Below, in pieces: positions 10,437 to 19,531 of a stretch of 64,000 bases of DNA. The stretch covers positions 78,178 through 142,177 of the forward strand of contig JAZDMB010000030.1 of NCBI GenBank assembly GCA_043801445.1, read 5' to 3'. A model generated the notes under the pieces. That model had not been told where the DNA came from. It made no database searches and worked only from the letters and a program-made list of their open reading frames with translations. Origin of the DNA: Planctomycetota bacterium (GTDB taxonomy: Bacteria > Planctomycetota > MHYJ01 > JACQXL01). Every line of letters starts with the position of its first letter. Position 1 is the stretch's first letter. A program made the translations under genes and the position numbers.

Positions 10437-10539
10437 AATCATAGGGGTTGTAGAATTAGGAGGCGAGGTGTGTATCACTAGACCTTGACGAGATTTGTCA
10501 ATGTGTCTCTCGAGATACATAATTAATTTTGGAGAAAAG

Positions 10540-11355
10540 ATGAAGAAAATTAAAATATATAAGTTAACTGTGCTTTTGATTGTTTCACTGACAATTGCAA
10601 GCGCGATTTATTATGCGGGTTGTTCAAGAAGTAGAAATGCTGACGAAAATAAAGATATCGATAGGGATCCTCTTGCTGAGATTGAAGGTCAAATTGACAG
10701 GAAATCTAAGGAGTTAAAGAATACCAACGAACGTATTAACGCTTTATATAGTGAAGACAGGTTGACAAGAAGCGCTGGTATCTGGTCATTAATTGAACAT
10801 CCAGACCCCATAGCAATACCTCATATTATGCAACTACTGAAAAATAACGATATAAGACTTAAAACTTTTTATAATAGGAATCATTCTGGCAAGTCACTTG
10901 ATGTATTTATTAGTATTGGTGCGCCTGTAATTCCCTATATTATAGATGAGTTTAGAACTTGTTTAACACAAATGCCCAGTGAGGAAAATGAGTTCTTTAT
11001 TGTGCTACTAGAAAATACGCTGTCGGAGATGACATCTTTTCCTGCGAGATATAATTATATTAACGGTTCATCTCAAGAAAAAATGGCGGTTTTACAATGG
11101 TGGATTGGTTGGTGGGAGAAAAATGGGGGACTGTCAAATATTACTTGGCGTAAAGATTCTATTAGAACTCATCAAAAAGATTTAACCTTAAGAAATATCG
11201 GGAGAGTTTCAACAATCAAGAAATTAAGACAATTAACCGGACTAAAATATAGCGAGGTAATTGTTAATACATCACCTGTAGATTATCCTCCAATGAAAGA
11301 CAGGAATGGTAATTTTCAAGGTTATCCTAATAAAGAAGATTTGAAGAAGTGGTAG
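10540..11355 (+). CDS. hypothetical lipoprotein (W-rich C-terminal region)
   Basis: Start 'MKKIKIYKLTVLLIVSLTIASAIYYAGCS' is a signal peptide with lipobox. The ORF ends at a TAG that is followed in-frame by a further 57 coding-like codons (see findings). Confidence 0.45.
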   Translation: MKKIKIYKLTVLLIVSLTIASAIYYAGCSRSRNADENKDIDRDPLAEIEGQIDRKSKELKNTNERINALYSEDRLTRSAGIWSLIEHPDPIAIPHIMQLLKNNDIRLKTFYNRNHSGKSLDVFISIGAPVIPYIIDEFRTCLTQMPSEENEFFIVLLENTLSEMTSFPARYNYINGSSQEKMAVLQWWIGWWEKNGGLSNITWRKDSIRTHQKDLTLRNIGRVSTIKKLRQLTGLKYSEVIVNTSPVDYPPMKDRNGNFQGYPNKEDLKKW

Positions 11356-12326: not shown

Positions 12327-12444
12327 TGAGATATTTTAGATTGGGTTCGTTAGGCTGGTTTATCCTGCATCTGGCTGTGATTGTTTTAATATTATGGCTG
12401 GGTTCGGTTATAAAATTTATATAGGTAGAAAGGAGATAAGGAAT

Positions 12445-12759
12445 ATGCAAAAGGCAATAGTTATAGGGCTGCTTATGTGCGGCGTGGTGTATTATTGGGG
12501 CTGTGGCAAAGAAAAGACTGCCGAGCAGCCGACTGCGGCAAAAACCGTAGCTCCGGCAACCGATGTTGTCAATCCGCATACGATTACCGATGCCGAGGTG
12601 GGTTTAACTGCCAAGTGTCCGGTAATGGGCAGTGAAGTTACCGTTGCCAAAGATACTCTGGCCGCTGAATACAAAGGCAAGGTCTATTATTTCTGCTGCG
12701 GTAGCTGTCCTGAGCAATTCAAACTCGACCCGGAAAAGTTTATCAAGGAATCAAAGTAG
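12445..12759 (+). CDS. YHS/TRASH-type metal-binding domain lipoprotein
   Basis: Signal/lipobox 'LLMCGVVYYWGCG'. C-terminal 'CPVMGSEV...YYFCCGSCPEQF' matches the YHS-domain cysteine pattern. Confidence 0.6.
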   Translation: MQKAIVIGLLMCGVVYYWGCGKEKTAEQPTAAKTVAPATDVVNPHTITDAEVGLTAKCPVMGSEVTVAKDTLAAEYKGKVYYFCCGSCPEQFKLDPEKFIKESK

Positions 12760-12859
12760 TACTCGAGTACTTAGTACTAAAGTATCTTAGCGGCTAAATT
12801 CACCTGTGCCCGTAGGGTATACTTTCCTATACCGCGAGAAATCAGAAAGGAGAAATATT

Positions 12860-13834
12860 ATGAAAAACAGTGCAGCGATTCTGTTATTGGTAGTATTGGT
12901 AACTGTTTTTAATTATGGTTGCGGAAGCAGCAGCAGTGGTAGTTCTACCACCGCCGGGTCCACGACGGCCGTGGATGACTATGTTTGGGTGGCAAATTCT
13001 GGCGCTGTTACCCGCATTCTGAAATCAGATCCTGCTATCAGCACCACGATTACCGCGGGAGGTGGACGGGGAGTCGCAGTAGATGAAACCTATTGCTGGG
13101 CGGTAGAACAGGGCTCTAATTATATCATCCGCATCCTGAAATCAGACCCCGCTATCACGTCCACGATTGTGGTAGGAACTAACCCCTTTGGAATCGCGGT
13201 TGACGGGACCTATTGCTGGGTAGTAAATACTGGGTCTGCTAATGTCACCCGCATCCAGAAATCAAATACTGCTATTAGCGCCACGATTGGCGTGGGAAGT
13301 TCACCCCAGGACATTGCGGTAGACGCGACCTATTGCTGGGTGGCAAATCAGGGTAACGGCGCTAATAGTGTCACCCGCATCAAGAAATCAGACTTAACCA
13401 CGACCACGATTGCCGTAGGAACTAATCCCACCGGAATCGCGGTAGATGAGACCTATTGTTGGGTGGCAAATTATTATGATAATAATGTCAGCCGTATCTT
13501 GAAATCAAACCCGGCTATCAGCGACACGGTTACGGTGGAAAGTCGTCCAGTTGGAGTCGCGGTTGACGGAACCTATTGTTGGGTGGCAAATTATATTTCT
13601 TGCACTGTCACCCGCATCAAGAAATCAGACTTAACCACGTTCACGAGTCCGGTGGGAACTTCCCCTTGTGGAGTCGCGGTAGACGGAACCTATGTCTGGG
13701 TGACAAATTCTGTTGCTAATACTGTCACCCGTATCCTGAAATCAGACTTAAGCACAACCGCGATTGCGGTCGGAACTACTCCCGTATCGTTGGGCGATAT
13801 GACCGGCTATGCCTACGATAATTACGCCCGGTAG
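12860..13834 (+). CDS. YVTN-family beta-propeller repeat lipoprotein
   Basis: Lipobox 'NYGCGSSSSG'. About eight consecutive ~40-aa repeats 'TYCWVANxGxxxVTRIxKSDxxxxTTIxVGxxPxGIAVD' (YVTN 40-residue repeat). Confidence 0.65.
   Translation: MKNSAAILLLVVLVTVFNYGCGSSSSGSSTTAGSTTAVDDYVWVANSGAVTRILKSDPAISTTITAGGGRGVAVDETYCWAVEQGSNYIIRILKSDPAITSTIVVGTNPFGIAVDGTYCWVVNTGSANVTRIQKSNTAISATIGVGSSPQDIAVDATYCWVANQGNGANSVTRIKKSDLTTTTIAVGTNPTGIAVDETYCWVANYYDNNVSRILKSNPAISDTVTVESRPVGVAVDGTYCWVANYISCTVTRIKKSDLTTFTSPVGTSPCGVAVDGTYVWVTNSVANTVTRILKSDLSTTAIAVGTTPVSLGDMTGYAYDNYAR
12990..13790 (+). repeat. intragenic tandem repeat (~120 bp unit x ~7-8) encoding the YVTN propeller blades
   Basis: Recurring DNA blocks '...acctattgctgggtggcaaat...gtcacccgcatc(c/a)(a/t)gaaatcag...' visible at ~120-bp spacing. 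Confidence 0.7.
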
Positions 13835-14100
13835 TATTCTTGATGTTCAAGCATTGTTTTATTAATTTATATTATCATGGCAACCGCAGAGCAACAACTC
13901 CAATAGTTTAATTAATATGGTATCCCTAGAATTACTAAACATTTTGCTTGACTTATAGAGATCTTTCCTCTAGAGAGTAACTGGCAGAAAACCCAAAAGA
14001 GGATCCGTTAGGTTTTTCGTTTGAGACGACTCTGTTATGAACCATAACCAGTCCCCTGGTGAATATGATGGATTCTGATTAAAATATATTCTTTAAATAA

Positions 14101-16236
14101 ATGAAAATTATCGTATTGGTATTAGGTATTATCACTGGTTTAGCAATCTTGGGTTATGCCGCACAGGATAACAATAATACAGAACTGTCAAAAGCCAAAG
14201 AGGCAGATAAGGAAAAGATAGAAGTGTCAAAAGAGTTCTATAATTTAGGCTCAGATGCTTTCAAGGACAAAAAGTATGATAAAGCGCGTAGCTTCTTAAT
14301 CAAAGCAATTTCCTATAATACCGAATTCATTGAAGCTTATGCTTTACTCGGCGACATATACGCCATACTTAAAGAAGAGACATTGGCATTCGAAAATTAT
14401 AAGAAATGTATGGATTGTGTTGATAAATTGAAGTCACCTTCAGAAGAAATAATCAAGCTTCGTAATGATTTATTTACTAAAACAGCGAAATTCAGAGAAT
14501 GGGAGGCGAAATTATTAACTCTGGATGAGGAATTCGTTGGCCGATTACTTGAATTGGGCTTGAAAGCCAAGGAGGAAAACGATTATTTATTAGCCGAGGA
14601 TATATTTTCTTTGGTTGTAAAAGTAGATAAAAATAATTCAGAGGCTTCAGGTTATCTGCAGAAAGTCAAAGATGAATTAAGCCAGGGAGCCGGAGATGCA
14701 TCAAACGTTGAAGCCGCTCAAATTTATTATCAATCCGGGCTGGCGTTTTTTAAGCAAAATAAATACGAAGAAGCGATTGAAAAATTCAGTAAAGCGGTCT
14801 CGGCCAAAAAGTATTTCCTTGAAGCATTATTTAAGTTGGGTGAATGTTATGAAAAGACTAAAAATAATATTCAAGCGATAAATAATTATAGATTGTGTCT
14901 GAGGTCTTTAGAATTCAGAAAGGAACTTACCCAAGATGAAAAGAATATCTTAACAGCGGTTAAACGTAATCTTGGTGCAATTGATAATAAAAGTAAGGAA
15001 ATTACTACTGTCCGTGAGAAATATGTTACTGAACTGATAAAAACAGCTAAAGATTGCATATCGCAAAACTCGGTTGATTTTGCCAAAAGTATTTATCAGA
15101 AGATTCTCAAGATAGAACCGGGTAATAAAACCGCCGTTGAAGCAATTACCAGAATCGAAAAAGAATCTACGAAAAAGATTGGTTGGTTGTCATTAACTCT
15201 GGGAGGCGCTCACGGAGTCGGCGTGAAAACAGATGGCACTCTATGGAGCTGGGGTTTAAATCAATCCGGACAATTAGGTGATGGAACAAATACTAGCAGA
15301 AACAAACCTGGTCAGATTGGGAAAGATATCAATTGGTTGAGCATTGTAGCCGGTAGCAGTCATACCTTGGCTCTGAAATCGGATGGTAGTCTATGGGCAT
15401 GGGGTGCCAATGAGTATGGCCAATTGGGTGACGGTACGACCAAAAATCGAAATAGTCCAATTAGAATAGGCACTGATACAACATGGTCGGTAATTAATTG
15501 TGGGCTTAATCATAGTATTGCCTTGAAAATTAACGGAACTTTATGGACCTGGGGCAAAAATGGATATGGCGCACTGGGTGACGGCACATGGGAACATAAG
15601 AATGTCCCGATTCAGATAGGCATTGACACAAACTGGGCAATTATTGCGGGCGGGAGCGAGCTTACTGCTGTTTTAAAAACAGATGGGACTTTGTGGACCT
15701 GGGGCTGTAGTCTTTTTGGTCAATTGGGTGATGGGTTACCCAATCATAATAGAAATAGGCCGATGCAAATAGGCACGGATACTGACTGGGCCGCTATGGT
15801 CTCCAATAATGCGTCTATTACCGCTCTAAAAAAGAATGGCACTATCTGGACCTGGGGTAATAATAATTTCGGTCAACTTGGAGACGGTACATGGATAGAC
15901 AGAAATGTTCCGGTTCAAATGGGCATAGATACAGACTGGGCAATGATCCAAGCCGGCGGGGGTAATTTTATGGCTCTGAAATCGGACGGTAGTCTGTGGG
16001 CATGGGGCGCCAACGGTTCCGGCCAATTAGGGATTGGAACTAAAACGAATAAAAATATACCTACCCAGGTCGGCACTGATAAAAATTGGCAAACTATTGT
16101 ATTTGCAGGCTTATCCAATAGTTCTGCTGCCTTTAAGAACGACGGCAGTGTTTGGATTTGGGGTGCCAACGGCGCCGGGCAATTAGGCGACGGCACCACT
16201 ACTGATAAAAATTCTCTTACCCGAATGAGCCACTAA
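14101..16236 (+). CDS. TPR-repeat / RCC1-repeat beta-propeller fusion protein
   Basis: N-terminal signal anchor. TPR-like helical repeats (EAYALLGDIY, KLGECYEKTKNNIQAINNYRLCL). C-terminal seven RCC1 repeats, each with 'G(Q/A)LGDGT' and 'LKxDG(T/S)LW(T/A)WG'. Confidence 0.7.
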   Translation: MKIIVLVLGIITGLAILGYAAQDNNNTELSKAKEADKEKIEVSKEFYNLGSDAFKDKKYDKARSFLIKAISYNTEFIEAYALLGDIYAILKEETLAFENYKKCMDCVDKLKSPSEEIIKLRNDLFTKTAKFREWEAKLLTLDEEFVGRLLELGLKAKEENDYLLAEDIFSLVVKVDKNNSEASGYLQKVKDELSQGAGDASNVEAAQIYYQSGLAFFKQNKYEEAIEKFSKAVSAKKYFLEALFKLGECYEKTKNNIQAINNYRLCLRSLEFRKELTQDEKNILTAVKRNLGAIDNKSKEITTVREKYVTELIKTAKDCISQNSVDFAKSIYQKILKIEPGNKTAVEAITRIEKESTKKIGWLSLTLGGAHGVGVKTDGTLWSWGLNQSGQLGDGTNTSRNKPGQIGKDINWLSIVAGSSHTLALKSDGSLWAWGANEYGQLGDGTTKNRNSPIRIGTDTTWSVINCGLNHSIALKINGTLWTWGKNGYGALGDGTWEHKNVPIQIGIDTNWAIIAGGSELTAVLKTDGTLWTWGCSLFGQLGDGLPNHNRNRPMQIGTDTDWAAMVSNNASITALKKNGTIWTWGNNNFGQLGDGTWIDRNVPVQMGIDTDWAMIQAGGGNFMALKSDGSLWAWGANGSGQLGIGTKTNKNIPTQVGTDKNWQTIVFAGLSNSSAAFKNDGSVWIWGANGAGQLGDGTTTDKNSLTRMSH

Positions 16237-16268
16237 AATTATTTTATCTGACTAGAAAGGAATACTTT

Positions 16269-17846
16269 ATGCTGTCGAAATCAAAATATATTATATTTGG
16301 GATAGTGATTATTTCTTTTTTAGGTGTTTTGAATTATTCGTTGCCTGATGATAATTTAGTTCCAGCTTCAAATCAGGATGTGACCGACCCGCAAAAAATC
16401 GAGCTGGCAAAAGATTCCTATAATTTAGCTTTAGCCGCATACAAGGAGAAGAACTATGAAAGATCCTGTGATTATTTGTCAAAAGCGATTTCGTTTTATC
16501 CAAATTATACCGAAGCGTATGCTTTATTAGGTAACGTTTATTATTCATTGAAGGAAGAAGAACGGGCATACGAATCCTATAAGAAATGCATAGAACTTAT
16601 TGATAAATCCGAGTCACCGTCTGATGATATAAGCAAACTGCGTGCTGAAATATTACCCAAGATTGAGAAAATTCTGGTATTGGATGCCAAAATATCCGTT
16701 TTGGATAAGGAATTTGTGGCACGAATATTGGAATTAGGTATGGAATCTATGCAAAGAGAGGATTATTTATTGGCAGAAGAAACATTTTTACTAATACTTA
16801 AAATAGACGCGAATAACACTGAAGTATCGGATAATCTTCAAAAGGTTAAAAATATATTAGCCCAAAATGATGGCAGCAATAACTACGAAATAGCCAAAGC
16901 ATATTATCAGTCCGGGCTGTTGCTTTTTAATCAAAACAAGTATGACGAAGCAATCGAAAAATTCAATAAAGCCCTTTCAACTAAAAAGGATTTTGTCGAG
17001 GCATTATTTAAGTTAGGCGAATGTTATGAAAACACAAAGGATACCATTCAAGCAATAATCAATTATCGATTATGTCTAAAATCTCTGGAATCCAAGAAAG
17101 AACTTGTCCAGGATGAAAAAAATATCCTGACCAGTGCTAAACGCAATCTTGATAAAATAGATGTTAAAGGCAAAGAATTTAAGATTGCAAAAGAAAAATA
17201 CGTAGCGGAGCTTCTGAAAACAGTCAATGAATACGCCTCTAAAAAATATCTTAATTGTGCAGTAAAGTTATACCGAAAAATTTTGAGTGTTGATCCTGTT
17301 AACAAAGCCGCTTCGGACGGGCTGGCGAAAGTGCGCAATGATATGACGCAAAAGGCGGTTGGCTCTAAGAAAGAACGCCTGATTTTCAGCGGCGAAGATA
17401 TGAGTGGATGGGATGTGAACAGTATATGGTTGCCGCTCTGGTCAGTCGATAAACCATTTCTGGTTTTTAACAGAACATCAAGAGATCAACCCAGCCTTAT
17501 TGAATATAAAACTGCCTTCCCCGAAAATTATATTTTAGCATTCGAACTAATTTTAGAAAAAAGATTGCCTATAACAGGGTATGAAGTTGGTATTTGTTAC
17601 GGTCAAAGTAGCAATGAGGGTAAAATATCATTACAAATAGTTAATACAATTTTTTCCAAACTAAACAACTGGGAAAAAATACGCTTTACTTTTAGCAAAC
17701 AAGATATGACTTTTAAATTGGAGGAAGGGTCTAAGGTGACCAAGAAGGGCAAGCTGGAAGTATCTGGAGTTTATAAAATCGGCATAAACGCACGCGGTTA
17801 TATAGCCAAATTCCGCAATATTACCCTACTGGATTTGGATCAATGA
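16269..17846 (+). CDS. TPR-repeat protein, paralog of the N-terminal module of the upstream gene, with a different ~170-aa C-terminal domain
   Basis: Residues ~20-360 align closely with the 14101-16236 protein (e.g. 'KLGECYENTKDTIQAIINYRLCLKSLESKKELVQDEKNILTSAKRNL'). The C-terminus 'LIFSGEDMSGWDVN...FRNITLLDLDQ' is unrelated to RCC1. Confidence 0.6.
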   Translation: MLSKSKYIIFGIVIISFLGVLNYSLPDDNLVPASNQDVTDPQKIELAKDSYNLALAAYKEKNYERSCDYLSKAISFYPNYTEAYALLGNVYYSLKEEERAYESYKKCIELIDKSESPSDDISKLRAEILPKIEKILVLDAKISVLDKEFVARILELGMESMQREDYLLAEETFLLILKIDANNTEVSDNLQKVKNILAQNDGSNNYEIAKAYYQSGLLLFNQNKYDEAIEKFNKALSTKKDFVEALFKLGECYENTKDTIQAIINYRLCLKSLESKKELVQDEKNILTSAKRNLDKIDVKGKEFKIAKEKYVAELLKTVNEYASKKYLNCAVKLYRKILSVDPVNKAASDGLAKVRNDMTQKAVGSKKERLIFSGEDMSGWDVNSIWLPLWSVDKPFLVFNRTSRDQPSLIEYKTAFPENYILAFELILEKRLPITGYEVGICYGQSSNEGKISLQIVNTIFSKLNNWEKIRFTFSKQDMTFKLEEGSKVTKKGKLEVSGVYKIGINARGYIAKFRNITLLDLDQ

Positions 17847-17849
17847 ACT

Positions 17850-18750
17850 TGACTAAATTATTGTTGTTCTTGTTAAGCATTTTATTTTCTGATTAATATT
17901 TCATATCCCATATTTCTTAACTTTCTTGTTCATATTCCTGCTTGTTGGCATAGGTAGGGGTGTTAGTAAAATTTCTACGGGATACTCGTTAACGGCGAGG
18001 AATACCAAGCCATTCCGGATGGACATTTCATAAACCCTATATTACATCTGGGTTTTGGCGATGACTATCATCCGTCACCTTTAAGTAGGGCAGTTGTGCG
18101 ATAAACAGGCATACCTCTAACACCTTATTTCAGGCAGGTCACAGACTCATCTATCCTTGTAGTCAAATATCCCTAAGATATATAGGTTGGTCGCCTATAT
18201 GTGCTTATTTTATAGGATATACCGGTATAGGCTCTATTGGGTGGTAGGGGATACCCTACCCCCATACCACCAATACCATACCCCTTATAACTTATTCATA
18301 TACCTGATACTATCCTGTGATATATAGTATATACACCGGTAACCGAATATGTATTACCTTATATACTTACTGATACTACGATGTAGTCCATCTGATAGTA
18401 TATGTTATACTACAGGATAATATCAGATAATACAATGTTTAGTCAGGTATATTATATCGTATAGTATTGCATATGATAATTCATACTACCTTATAGTATA
18501 TAGTATAGTATGGGATAGATCAACTCATAGCATGGCATAGTCACACTATGTGGCATAGTTAGACACAGATACCGTATAGGTGAAATTCATTACAGAGAGT
18601 AATATACGGAAAATATATAATTATATTGACCCCATTAGAGATAATTGATATGGTTTACATATATGATAACCCCTCTGTCCCTGCGGGACTACGGGATAAC
18701 TGCCCGTAATTCTTCCCGACGGGACTCAAACAGGCAGTAAGGAGGTGTAA
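17850..18750. other. ~0.9 kb non-coding block of skewed, word-repetitive composition (tata/gtat/catag/ggtag words; near-palindrome GGTAGGGGATACCCTACCCCC)
   Basis: No ORF of 60 aa or more on either strand. Contains 'gggtggtaggggataccctacccccataccaccaataccatacccc' and long runs of 'tatagtata/catagcatggcatag'. Word content resembles the repeat arrays at 47.9-50.1 kb. Confidence 0.5.
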
Positions 18751-18751
18751 T

Positions 18752-19531
18752 ATGCCGATGATAAGTAAGGTGGATATACCGGTAATACCTGATGTGAGGC
18801 CGCACCAGGATATGAGCAGTAAATGGGAGGAGAATAGCAAGAATAACGCCCAGACTGCGAATGAACGCCGTAAATGGCGCATCAAGAACGATAATGACTA
18901 CGGCCAGATTATCGCCACACCTGCCGCGGAGAAATATAAGGCACGGGTTCAATTTACATCCGCCGGCGGTAATGACCGAGATGCCGAGGATATCTACGTT
19001 ATGCACCGCAAGAAACTGCTCAAGTCATACAAGAAATACCAAAAAGGATTGGATATCGTCTATGCCGAGGATGGCAAGAAATTCAAAGAGGCGATAGAGA
19101 AGAAGAAGGGTAACTGGGAAGAGGGCATCGGCACAACATTGCGATTTACCGGCAGTCGCGCCAGAGGCAGGCAGGTAGTCTCGGTAGTCGGCAAATGGCT
19201 GACCGGCGACCCGGCTACAGTCGGTATTTTACCGGAGGGTTCTCAGATTGATGGCGGTCCTTATGACATTGCGCCGGAGCGGCTGAAAGCCACATTACGC
19301 GCCTCGTTGACCCAACTCCTGACCCAGACCGGCATAATTATATCCGAATCAGAGTATAACCCGGCTCTGATGCTCAGGCACAACAGCCGAATAAAGGATT
19401 TTCTCTCGCGGATGTCCGACCCGACTAAAGCCATCAATTGGTCAATAGACCGCCTGACTGATAAATCGTATTGTGTCTGGTACCTGAACCAGGGGCAGTT
19501 GTTTCTGGGCATCCAGATTTATGCGCCGTAG
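18752..19531 (+). CDS. hypothetical protein (ORFan; visibly GC-richer than flanks)
   Basis: Strong RBS 'TAAGGAGGTGTAATATG'. 259-aa ORF with no recognisable motif. Codon composition is GC-richer than neighbouring genes. Upstream leader has several short GC hairpins (tacggg-ataactg-cccgta; gtccc-tgc-gggac). Confidence 0.5.
   Translation: MPMISKVDIPVIPDVRPHQDMSSKWEENSKNNAQTANERRKWRIKNDNDYGQIIATPAAEKYKARVQFTSAGGNDRDAEDIYVMHRKKLLKSYKKYQKGLDIVYAEDGKKFKEAIEKKKGNWEEGIGTTLRFTGSRARGRQVVSVVGKWLTGDPATVGILPEGSQIDGGPYDIAPERLKATLRASLTQLLTQTGIIISESEYNPALMLRHNSRIKDFLSRMSDPTKAINWSIDRLTDKSYCVWYLNQGQLFLGIQIYAP

What the first reader, a model, noticed from the sequence alone, without database searches (positions are those of the whole stretch)
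12806..17846. Cluster of repeat-architecture surface proteins: YVTN propeller lipoprotein plus tandem TPR paralogs with swapped C-terminal domains
Two adjacent genes share a ~340-aa TPR-like N-terminal module with high identity. One carries a 7-bladed RCC1 propeller; the other carries an unrelated ~170-aa domain, a domain-swap duplication. Immediately upstream is an 8-blade YVTN propeller lipoprotein encoded by near-perfect ~120-bp DNA tandem repeats, which are prone to slippage and blade-number variation. RCC1 propellers are uncommon in bacteria. The cluster looks like a rapidly evolving binding-protein locus, potentially host- or phage-interaction related.
Basis: partly seen in the sequence, partly recalled or inferred. 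Interest (0 to 1): 0.55.

Follow-up and report, generated by a model that had tools for sequence, protein, structure and literature searches.

The report
Secreted TPR paralogs with swapped heads
Three neighbouring genes in an uncultivated Planctomycetota genome encode exported repeat proteins: a seven-bladed propeller lipoprotein and two duplicated helical-repeat proteins whose tail domains differ; this is a real but fairly ordinary case of domain shuffling, not a fast-evolving, slippage-prone locus.

Summary
The three ORFs exist as described, and the two TPR genes are true paralogs (51% identity over 358 aa, E 3e-117). One carries a canonical 7-repeat RCC1-like propeller.

Two details are wrong:
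- The YVTN protein has 7 blades, not 8. Its best structural match is the 1L0Q archaeal YVTN propeller.
- Its ~120-bp DNA units are only 57-77% identical, with a longest exact repeat of 34 bp. They are not near-perfect.

Relatives at 55-63% identity all keep 7 blades. There is no sign of slippage, hypervariation, phage defence or mobile DNA, and the genes sit among housekeeping genes.

The two TPR genes belong to a narrow, uncharacterised family of signal-peptide-bearing TPR-module proteins; every named member comes from a Planctomycetota MAG. The family occurs in tandem arrays and carries interchangeable C-terminal heads: mostly short DUF1080, but also Kelch, PD40, LamG, FGE-sulfatase, DUF2341 and extra TPRs. 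RCC1 is seen only in the window's cluster and arose after a local duplication. YVTN adjacency is not conserved.

Likely role: exported scaffold and ligand-binding proteins of the cell envelope. That function is inferred, not shown.

The parts
12860..13834 (+). YVTN-type seven-bladed beta-propeller, putative lipoprotein (324 aa). It has a signal peptide, then Cys21 (TGC at 12920-12922) in the motif FNYGC, then a Ser/Gly/Thr linker, then the propeller.
   Evidence: ORF. A Shine-Dalgarno AAGGAG lies 8 nt before the ATG at 12860. TIGR02276 scores 44.8 bits, above its cutoff. The AF2 model has pLDDT 87.2 and 28 strands. The best PDB match is 1l0q_A, E 3e-19, TM 0.80. The FNYG(G)C motif is conserved in relatives.
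12956..13786 (+). Seven ~117-123-bp (about 40-aa) blade-coding units. The C-terminal segment 13787-13831 (TTPVSLGDMTGYAYDNYAR) supplies the closing strand.
   Evidence: Units are 57-77% identical at the DNA level and 46-67% at the protein level. TRF reports period 117-123 with 69-74% matches.
13369..13402 (+). Longest exact internal repeat (34 bp). The second copy is at 13606-13639, in blades 4 and 6.
14101..16236 (+). TPR-module/RCC1 paralog (711 aa; NCBI MFH0888442.1). It consists of a signal peptide (MKIIVLVLGIITGLAILGYA), the family TPR module (~residues 27-359, 14179-15177) and a 7-repeat RCC1-like propeller (residues ~361-711, 15181-16233).
   Evidence: The closest solved RCC1-like domains are UVR8 and HERC2 (E 2.5e-46).
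16269..17846 (+). TPR-module/short-DUF1080 paralog (525 aa; NCBI MFH0888443.1). It consists of a signal peptide or anchor, the family TPR module (~residues 31-362) and a C-terminal ~160-aa lectin-like beta-sandwich (residues ~365-525, 17361-17843).

Best explanation
The region holds three genes for exported repeat proteins of an uncultivated Planctomycetota bacterium. They are best read as two independent items, not one system.

(1) A lipoprotein made of a closed seven-bladed YVTN propeller. It is a trimmed member of a lineage-specific family whose other members carry extra FN3-like domains between the lipobox and the propeller.

(2) Two tandem paralogs of a narrow family; every member that carries a source name comes from a Planctomycetota MAG. 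In this family a signal peptide and a conserved ~335-aa TPR-like module (itself an internal duplication of a ~165-aa unit) are joined to an interchangeable C-terminal 'head'. The ancestral and commonest head is a shortened DUF1080/CBM66-like concanavalin-type beta-sandwich. After a local tandem duplication, one copy in this lineage replaced that head with a canonical seven-bladed RCC1-like propeller.

Proposed mechanism (inferred):
- The proteins are exported across the cytoplasmic membrane.
- The TPR solenoid docks to a common partner or to other paralogs.
- The head binds a ligand: most probably a glycan for the lectin-like head, and a protein or other surface for the propeller.
- Tandem arrays of paralogs would thus give a set of envelope or periplasmic scaffold-binding proteins with different specificities.
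- The short DUF1080 head is more likely a binding module than a 3-keto-glycoside hydrolase, because it lacks the central ~45-residue segment of the family, including the GGNSG motif.

Shown: gene structures, paralogy, domain identities, predicted folds, family distribution, head diversity, and the lack of near-identical repeats.
Inferred: export, lipidation, binding function, and non-catalytic status.
For: Paralogy:
- 51% identity over 358 aa.
- A rough NJ tree of TPR modules puts the RCC1 pair (window plus sister genome) as sister to the adjacent DUF1080 pair, nested among DUF1080-bearing members.

Head identity:
- Relatives P0003, P0004, P0007 and P0008 carry PF06439 at the aligned position.
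- The profile of the head hits only PF06439 proteins and DUF1080 PDB entries.
- The AF2 model has pLDDT 87.6.
- Foldseek top hits are 9fbe_B, 3h3l, the CBM66 structure 4b1m and 4jqt, TM 0.61-0.69.
- The central deletion is seen in alignment A3.

Family:
- The search of 1.84 billion representatives finds about 60 family members.
- About half carry the short DUF1080 head, once or twice. Others carry Kelch, FGE-sulfatase, DUF2341, PD40, Laminin_G_3 or TPR arrays.
- RCC1 occurs only in the window's cluster.
- 56 of 58 members have an N-terminal hydrophobic signal segment.
- Tandem arrays occur in L002 (4 genes), L006 (4), L005 and L007.

YVTN:
-. Relatives keep 7 blades.
- Tandem YVTN paralogs occur in L001 with no TPR-DUF1080 genes nearby.

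Context:
- The flanking genes are housekeeping.
- No PADLOC hits, no Rfam hits and no tRNA.
Against: - There is no experimental or expression data, and no conserved functional partner gene in any relative, so the ligand and cellular role are guesses.
- The window's head itself gets no Pfam hit even at E<=10. Three relatives reach only ~26.5-26.8 bits against a 26.8 cutoff. Family assignment therefore rests on profile and fold evidence.
- The lipobox is non-canonical at position -3 (FNYGC).
- The TPR module was not modelled, and only about 4 TPR motifs are recognised by Pfam.
- The NJ tree has no support values.
- GC3 of the TPR modules (0.33) is well below that of neighbouring housekeeping genes (0.43-0.55). 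This is unexplained and could mean foreign origin or low expression.
Confidence: 0.6

Rival explanations
1. One reading: a rapidly evolving contingency-type locus of surface binding proteins for host or phage interaction, with slippage-prone DNA repeats that vary blade number.
For: - The proteins are exported and built of repeats.
- There is one 34-bp exact repeat between blades 4 and 6.
- The sister-genome contig L004 lacks ~301 bp (two RCC1 blades) of the RCC1 paralog.
Against: - Blade-coding units are only 57-77% identical.
- All relatives complete across the propeller keep 7 blades, and a closed propeller does not tolerate loss of single blades.
- The L004 difference is not a multiple of 3 and comes from a short-read Logan contig, so it is likely an assembly collapse.
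- No PADLOC hit, and the genomic context is housekeeping.
- The paralogs are old: 51% aa and 68% nt identity.
Confidence: 0.06
2. The three genes form one co-transcribed functional unit, for example an envelope complex in which the TPR proteins dock the YVTN lipoprotein.
For: - All three are on the same strand. The gap between the two TPR genes is only 32 bp and no convincing terminator lies between them.
- In L007 a TPR-DUF1080 pair is followed by a Kelch propeller gene.
- All products are exported.
Against: - A 267-bp gap separates the YVTN gene from the first TPR gene.
- YVTN relatives in L001 have no TPR-DUF1080 neighbours.
- TPR-family loci L002, L005 and L006 have no YVTN gene.
- Contexts differ in every relative.
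Confidence: 0.12
3. The DUF1080-like head is catalytically active (a 3-keto-glycoside hydrolase/eliminase or other glycosidase), so the TPR-DUF1080 proteins are secreted carbohydrate-degrading enzymes, as has been proposed for planctomycete DUF1080 proteins.
For: - DUF1080 member BT2157 hydrolyses 3-keto-trehalose (PMC8121099).
- DUF1080 is over-represented in Planctomycetes and has been proposed to act as a glycosidase (PMC5673643).
- The best fold hit is the enzyme 9fbe_B.
Against: - The head is ~160 aa against ~190-240 aa for the enzymes.
- It lacks the central segment containing the conserved GGNSG motif.
- Its size and topology match the CBM66 binding module equally well (TM 0.61-0.63 over the full 165 aa).
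- No dehydrogenase or isomerase partners of the 3-keto pathway are nearby.
- PMC5673643 notes that DUF1080 and CBM66 annotations overlap.
Confidence: 0.12
4. The YVTN ORF is a decaying remnant (pseudogene) of a longer FN3-plus-propeller lipoprotein.
For: - Relatives are 446-526 aa and carry FN3-like domains that the window's protein lacks.
- The exact protein is absent from the 15-billion-protein collection although both flanking proteins are present. This suggests the depositor's annotation did not call it.
Against: - The ORF is intact, with an SD sequence, signal peptide, lipobox Cys, linker and a complete propeller modelled at pLDDT >90 over nearly the whole domain.
- All blade motifs and the C-terminal GDMTGYAYDNY closing motif are conserved.
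Confidence: 0.08

Closest known systems
YVTN beta-propeller repeat family (TIGR02276); archetype: the Methanosarcina mazei surface-layer protein propeller, PDB 1L0Q
   Same: - About 40-aa repeats.
- Seven four-stranded blades with C-terminal strand closure.
- Extracytoplasmic location.
- Foldseek E 3e-19, TM 0.80, rmsd 1.9 A, 28% identity. The repeat HMM scores above its cutoff.
   Different: - It is a bacterial putative lipoprotein, not an archaeal S-layer protein.
- It has no PKD domain.
- The blade motif is D-x-T-Y-C-W-V-A-N...V-T-R-I-x-K-S, with a conserved Cys in most blades.
- Unlike its closest relatives, it lacks the FN3-like N-terminal domains.
DUF1080 / PF06439 (3-keto-disaccharide hydrolase family; BT2157; PDB 9FBE, 3H3L, 4JQT) and the overlapping CBM66 module (PDB 4B1M)
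   Same: - Concanavalin-like beta-sandwich.
- N-terminal 'FNGxDLxxW' motif and C-terminal 'FRNIxLxEL' motif.
- The profile retrieves only PF06439 proteins.
- Best fold matches.
- The family is abundant in Planctomycetes (PMC5673643).
   Different: - About 45 residues shorter, lacking the central segment with GGNSG.
- The window's copy fails the Pfam model outright.
- It is fused to a TPR module and has no 3-keto-pathway neighbours.
- It is probably non-catalytic (inference).
RCC1-like domain (PF00415 / PF25390; UVR8, HERC1/2 RLDs; bacterial COG5184 proteins)
   Same: - Seven canonical ~50-aa RCC1 repeats with GxLG motifs.
- E 2.5e-46 to UVR8.
   Different: - It is exported and fused behind a TPR module.
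- This architecture was seen only in the window's cluster among about 60 family representatives drawn from 1.84 billion clusters.
- No GEF or UV-sensing role can be assumed.
Exported bacterial TPR scaffold proteins and lipoproteins (PilW, BamD, YbgF, LapB, BatC, Tgl)
   Same: Signal peptide plus TPR helical repeats. Weak partial hits to these NCBIfam models.
   Different: - All hits are far below the family cutoffs (for example PilW 47.8 against 154; BatC 19.2 against 175), so it is not a member of any of them.
- The ~335-aa module is a family of its own with variable C-terminal heads.

Membership tests
YVTN beta-propeller repeat (TIGR02276) | Repeat HMM above the curated cutoff | tested here: met
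   44.8 bits against a cutoff of 27.85, two stretches.
YVTN beta-propeller repeat (TIGR02276) | Seven-bladed closed propeller like 1L0Q | tested here: met
   Predicted only. The AF2 model has pLDDT 87 and 28 strands. Match to 1l0q_A has E 3e-19 and TM 0.80.
Bacterial lipoprotein | Signal peptide followed by a lipobox [LVI][ASTVI][GAS]C | tested here: inconclusive
   A hydrophobic h-region and a conserved Cys21 followed by a G/S linker are present. The -3/-2 residues are N-Y (FNYGC), which is non-canonical. The motif is conserved as FNYG(G)C in relatives. No lipoprotein predictor was available.
RCC1-like domain (PF00415, PF13540, PF25390) | About seven tandem RCC1 repeats above the gathering scores | tested here: met
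   PF00415 220.5 bits with 7 stretches; PF25390 274.6 bits against 150.
TPR (PF07719, PF00515, PF13181) | TPR motif HMMs above the gathering scores | tested here: met
   TPR_2 scores 50.3 and 69 bits against a cutoff of 27 in the two paralogs. Only about 2-3 motifs per protein are recognised; the rest of the module is helical but unassigned.
DUF1080 / PF06439 (3-keto-disaccharide hydrolase) | Pfam HMM above the gathering score (26.8 bits) | tested here: not met
   No hit for the window's head even at E<=10. Homologous heads of relatives score 25.6-26.8 (borderline) and 51.2 for P0008.
DUF1080 / PF06439 (3-keto-disaccharide hydrolase) | Homology detectable by profile, and the same fold | tested here: met
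   All 24 of 24 profile hits carry PF06439. PDB sequence hits are 4jqt, 3u1x and 3h3l. Foldseek top hits are 9fbe_B, 3h3l and 4jqt.
DUF1080 / PF06439 (3-keto-disaccharide hydrolase) | Full-length domain with the conserved central GGNSG segment (presumed active-site region) | tested here: not met
   Alignment A3 shows a ~45-column deletion covering this segment in all TPR-linked heads. Catalytic residues of the characterised enzymes were not mapped.
CBM66 | About 165-aa beta-sandwich that binds terminal fructosyl residues | tested here: inconclusive
   Fold match to 4b1m and 4azz, TM 0.61-0.63 over the full length, 13-14% identity. Binding residues and ligand were not tested.
Phase-variable / contingency repeat gene | Near-identical tandem DNA repeats, and repeat-number differences among close relatives | tested here: not met
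   Units are 57-77% identical and the longest exact repeat is 34 bp. The six relatives complete across the propeller all have 7 blades. Population read data are not available.
Known anti-phage defence systems (PADLOC-DB) | Match to any defence-protein model | tested here: not met
   No hits for the three proteins or four neighbours at E<=0.001.

The most novel reading that the evidence does not exclude
The conserved, signal-peptide-bearing ~335-aa TPR module, or its ~165-aa half encoded as a separate gene in relatives, is a dedicated docking adaptor of an uncultivated Planctomycetota lineage. It presents a repertoire of interchangeable binding heads (short DUF1080, LamG, Kelch, PD40, RCC1, FGE-like) from tandem gene arrays. 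This would be a previously undescribed modular envelope-receptor or substrate-capture system, with the RCC1 copy as a lineage-specific new specificity.
Probability: 0.2. Interest if true: 0.45.

Novelty: new member of a known kind. Interest (0 to 1): 0.25.

Why it matters
If the proposed function holds, the locus documents how one planctomycete lineage diversifies exported binding proteins: tandem duplication of a TPR scaffold, then replacement of its C-terminal head. The TPR+RCC1 architecture is apparently unique to this lineage.

It also defines a shortened DUF1080/CBM66-like module that current Pfam thresholds miss, which could improve annotation of Planctomycetota MAGs.

It does not bear on a long-standing open question. 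All component domains are known, and no mechanism of unusual genetics (slippage, hypervariation, defence) is supported.

Tried and rejected
- Exact-sequence look-ups of the window's TPR protein found no contig, so the source contig could not be fetched. The source is known only as an NCBI 'MAG: Planctomycetota bacterium' with a 187-kb contig.
- Pfam on the isolated head found nothing useful.
- Rfam on 10-21 kb had no hits, and there are no tRNAs in the window.
- The promoter/terminator scan was not above shuffled expectation.
- PADLOC found nothing.
- The genome-contig scan returned only 3 true relatives (L005-L007). The other 77 loci are generic TPR proteins, mostly Microcoleus, and were disregarded.
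- Repeat-number polymorphism could not be tested. The sister-genome contigs break at or collapse within the repeat genes.
- I looked for further paralogs in the window and found none.
- A BatA-E-like (VWA+TPR) operon was considered because of a VWA gene in L005 and a weak BatC hit. It was rejected: there is no VWA, MoxR or DUF58 gene in the window and the scores are far below cutoff.
- Homology of the YVTN protein to the hydrazine synthase beta subunit was considered and rejected: 22.7 bits against a cutoff of 560, which is only generic propeller similarity.
- A literature search for the catalytic residues of the 9FBE-type enzyme did not find the relevant paper.
Full report
**Observation**

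ORF listing confirms three same-strand genes: 12806/12860-13834, 14101-16236 (711 aa) and 16269-17846 (525 aa).

BLASTP of the two larger proteins gives one colinear alignment of 358 residues at 51% identity and 71% positives, E 3e-117. A weaker second HSP shows that the module's N-half resembles its C-half. The similarity is therefore genuine paralogy, not low complexity. At the DNA level the shared part is 68% identical over ~800 bp.

Pfam finds seven RCC1 repeats in the 711-aa protein (PF00415 2.6e-66; PF25390 2e-81) and TPR motifs in both proteins. The last ~160 aa of the 525-aa protein give no Pfam hit even at E<=10.

The upstream protein matches the YVTN repeat model TIGR02276 above its cutoff.

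**Corrections to the observation**

- The YVTN gene most likely starts at the ATG at 12860, which has an AAGGAG Shine-Dalgarno 8 nt upstream. That gives a 324-aa protein.
- It contains seven blade units, not eight. An AlphaFold2 model built on 42 homologues (mean pLDDT 87.2) has 28 strands. These form seven four-stranded blades, with the C-terminal strand completing blade 1. The best PDB match is the seven-bladed YVTN propeller of the Methanosarcina mazei S-layer protein, 1L0Q (E 3e-19, TM 0.80, rmsd 1.9 A).
- The DNA units are not near-perfect. TRF reports 69-74% matches. My pairwise comparison gives 57-77% identity, with a longest exact repeat of 34 bp at 13369-13402 and 13606-13639.

**Identity of the unknown C-terminal domain**

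- A search of 5.8 billion proteins found only a handful of relatives of the 525-aa protein, all from Planctomycetota MAGs or unnamed metagenome contigs. Four of them (P0003, P0004, P0007, P0008; 37-50% identical) carry PF06439 (DUF1080) exactly where the window's tail aligns.
- A profile of seven such tails retrieves 24 proteins, and every one is annotated PF06439. Against PDB sequences it hits the DUF1080 structures 4JQT, 3U1X, 3H3L and 4QHZ.
- An AlphaFold2 model of the tail (pLDDT 87.6, pTM 0.84) is an all-beta sandwich. Its best Foldseek matches are the 3-keto-glycoside eliminase/hydratase 9FBE, 3H3L, the CBM66 module 4B1M and 4JQT, with TM 0.61-0.69.
- The alignment with ordinary DUF1080 proteins shows the family's N-terminal FNGxDLxxW and C-terminal FRNIxLxEL motifs. 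It also shows a ~45-column deletion that removes the central segment with the conserved GGNSG motif.

I conclude that the tail is a shortened, divergent DUF1080/CBM66-like lectin-fold module. Because of the deletion and its CBM-like size, it is more likely a binding module than an enzyme; this is inference. Literature basis: a DUF1080 protein (BT2157) hydrolyses 3-keto-trehalose (PMC8121099). DUF1080 is strongly over-represented in Planctomycetes, and its annotation overlaps with CBM66 (PMC5673643).

**The TPR family and the domain swap**

- A profile of the ~335-aa module was searched against 1.84 billion cluster representatives. It separates about 60 specific family members from generic TPR proteins.
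- With local HMMs, about half of them carry one or two short-DUF1080 heads, and none outside the window's cluster carries RCC1. Pfam shows the remaining heads to be Kelch, FGE-sulfatase, DUF2341, PD40 propeller, Laminin_G_3 or canonical TPR arrays. One type remains unassigned.
- 56 of 58 members begin with a signal-peptide-like hydrophobic segment.
- In four related genomes the family occurs as tandem arrays: L002 has four TPR-DUF1080 genes in a row, L006 has four, and L005 and L007 have two or three.
- In those genomes the module is split. An upstream ~360-aa gene ends with the N-half. The following ~340-aa genes consist of signal peptide, C-half and head. The window's genes, and P0002-P0007, are the fused form.
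- A rough NJ tree of modules places the RCC1 pair (window plus sister genome) as sister to the adjacent DUF1080 pair, nested among DUF1080-bearing members. This fits a local tandem duplication followed by replacement of the DUF1080 head by RCC1.
- Both architectures already exist in a sister genome that is 85-88% identical (P0002, P0006), and the paralogs are only 51% identical. The event is therefore old, not ongoing.
- The RCC1 domain is canonical. Its nearest solved relatives are UVR8 and HERC2 RLDs, E ~1e-46. RCC1-like repeats are well documented in prokaryotes (PMC3035250).

**Is it a cluster or system, and is it fast-evolving?**

- YVTN relatives at 55-63% identity (P0074-P0080) align blade for blade. 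The six that are complete across the propeller each carry 7 blade motifs, and P0080 is cut at its N-terminus. Five of the seven (P0074, P0076-P0079) end in the same GDMTGYAYDNY segment; P0075 and P0080 continue past that motif into a C-terminal extension. Several carry FN3-like domains in front of the propeller, which the window's protein lacks.
- In L001 two YVTN paralogs sit in tandem without any TPR-DUF1080 gene. Conversely, the TPR-family loci lack YVTN genes. The adjacency in the window is therefore not conserved.
- The surroundings are housekeeping genes: rho, pyrR, pyrB, pyrC, trmO and purF upstream; ispF, a MarR-TolC-HlyD-AcrB efflux operon and cysS downstream.
- There are no PADLOC matches, no Rfam families, no tRNAs and no further paralogs in the window.

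Nothing supports slippage, hypervariation, mobile DNA or phage/host interaction specifically.

**Most likely function**

The following is inferred. The proteins are exported. The YVTN protein is probably lipid-anchored through Cys21, and the TPR proteins are released or anchored by their N-terminal hydrophobic segment. The TPR module would serve as a protein-protein docking scaffold, and the head would provide ligand recognition: glycan for the lectin-like head, and an unknown ligand for RCC1. Tandem arrays with different heads would give a set of envelope binding proteins.

I put about 0.85 confidence on the structural and evolutionary description and about 0.35 on the functional mechanism.

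**Verdict**

This is a real and correctly spotted duplication with a domain swap. It is built from known domains, in a little-known lineage-specific family. Several of the exciting attributes (8 blades, near-perfect repeats, rapid evolution, host/phage role) are not borne out. Interest is low to moderate.

Noticed in passing
window 17847-18751: A ~900-bp AT-rich stretch with no ORF of 80 aa or more, full of short TATAGTATA/GATA-like direct repeats. Synteny with the sister-genome contig L003 (88% nt identity) ends at ~17913. There L003 carries an ARPP-1 (PF20208) gene instead. This may be a rearrangement breakpoint or a regulatory region.
   Followed up: partly
window 18752-19531 (+): A 259-aa ORF directly after the gap, with no Pfam, NCBIfam or PADLOC match. 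It may not be a real gene.
   Followed up: partly
window 10495-11355, 12394-12759, 12860-13834: Three nearby ORFs share an unusual lipobox-like motif Y-x-G-C after the signal h-region (IYYAGCS, VYYWGCG, FNYGCG). It is conserved as FNYG(G)C in YVTN relatives from other Planctomycetota MAGs. This may be a lineage-specific lipobox variant.
   Followed up: partly
L004 1439-1713 versus window 15372-15946: The sister genome's RCC1 paralog (Logan contig from SRR29054610) lacks ~301 bp, about two RCC1 blades, and is frameshifted (520 aa plus 106 aa ORFs). This is either a real degraded allele or a short-read assembly collapse across the repeats.
   Followed up: partly
window 12860-13834: The exact YVTN protein, with either start codon, is absent from the 15-billion-protein collection. 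The two flanking TPR proteins are present as NCBI MFH0888442.1 and MFH0888443.1. The depositor's annotation probably skipped it or flagged it as a pseudogene, perhaps because relatives are 120-200 aa longer.
   Followed up: partly
window 14101-15180 and 16269-17360 versus neighbours: Third-codon-position GC of the TPR modules (0.33) is much lower than that of the YVTN gene (0.51), purF (0.55) or ispF (0.43). This is unexplained: it could reflect foreign origin, low expression or amino-acid bias.
   Followed up: no
window 14101-15180, 16269-17360; L002, L005, L006, L007: The ~335-aa TPR module is an internal duplication (N-half versus C-half ~20-27% identical). In relatives it is encoded as two separate adjacent genes, whereas it is fused in the window. 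This is a gene fusion or fission within the family.
   Followed up: yes
L007 10436-11602; L005 2838-4523; L007 106-8117: Relatives' TPR-DUF1080 arrays are flanked by other exported repeat or adhesion-type genes: a Kelch propeller, a VWA protein, and two ~1300-aa TPR+DUF3857+transglutaminase-like proteins. None is conserved across loci.
   Followed up: partly
window 12394-12759 (+): A small putative lipoprotein with a YHS/TRASH metal-binding domain (PF04945, 2.1e-09) lies 100 bp upstream of the YVTN gene. Weak structural resemblance of the propeller to metal- or cofactor-binding propellers (AztD, BtuG, NosZ) was seen, but at much lower scores than to 1L0Q.
   Followed up: no
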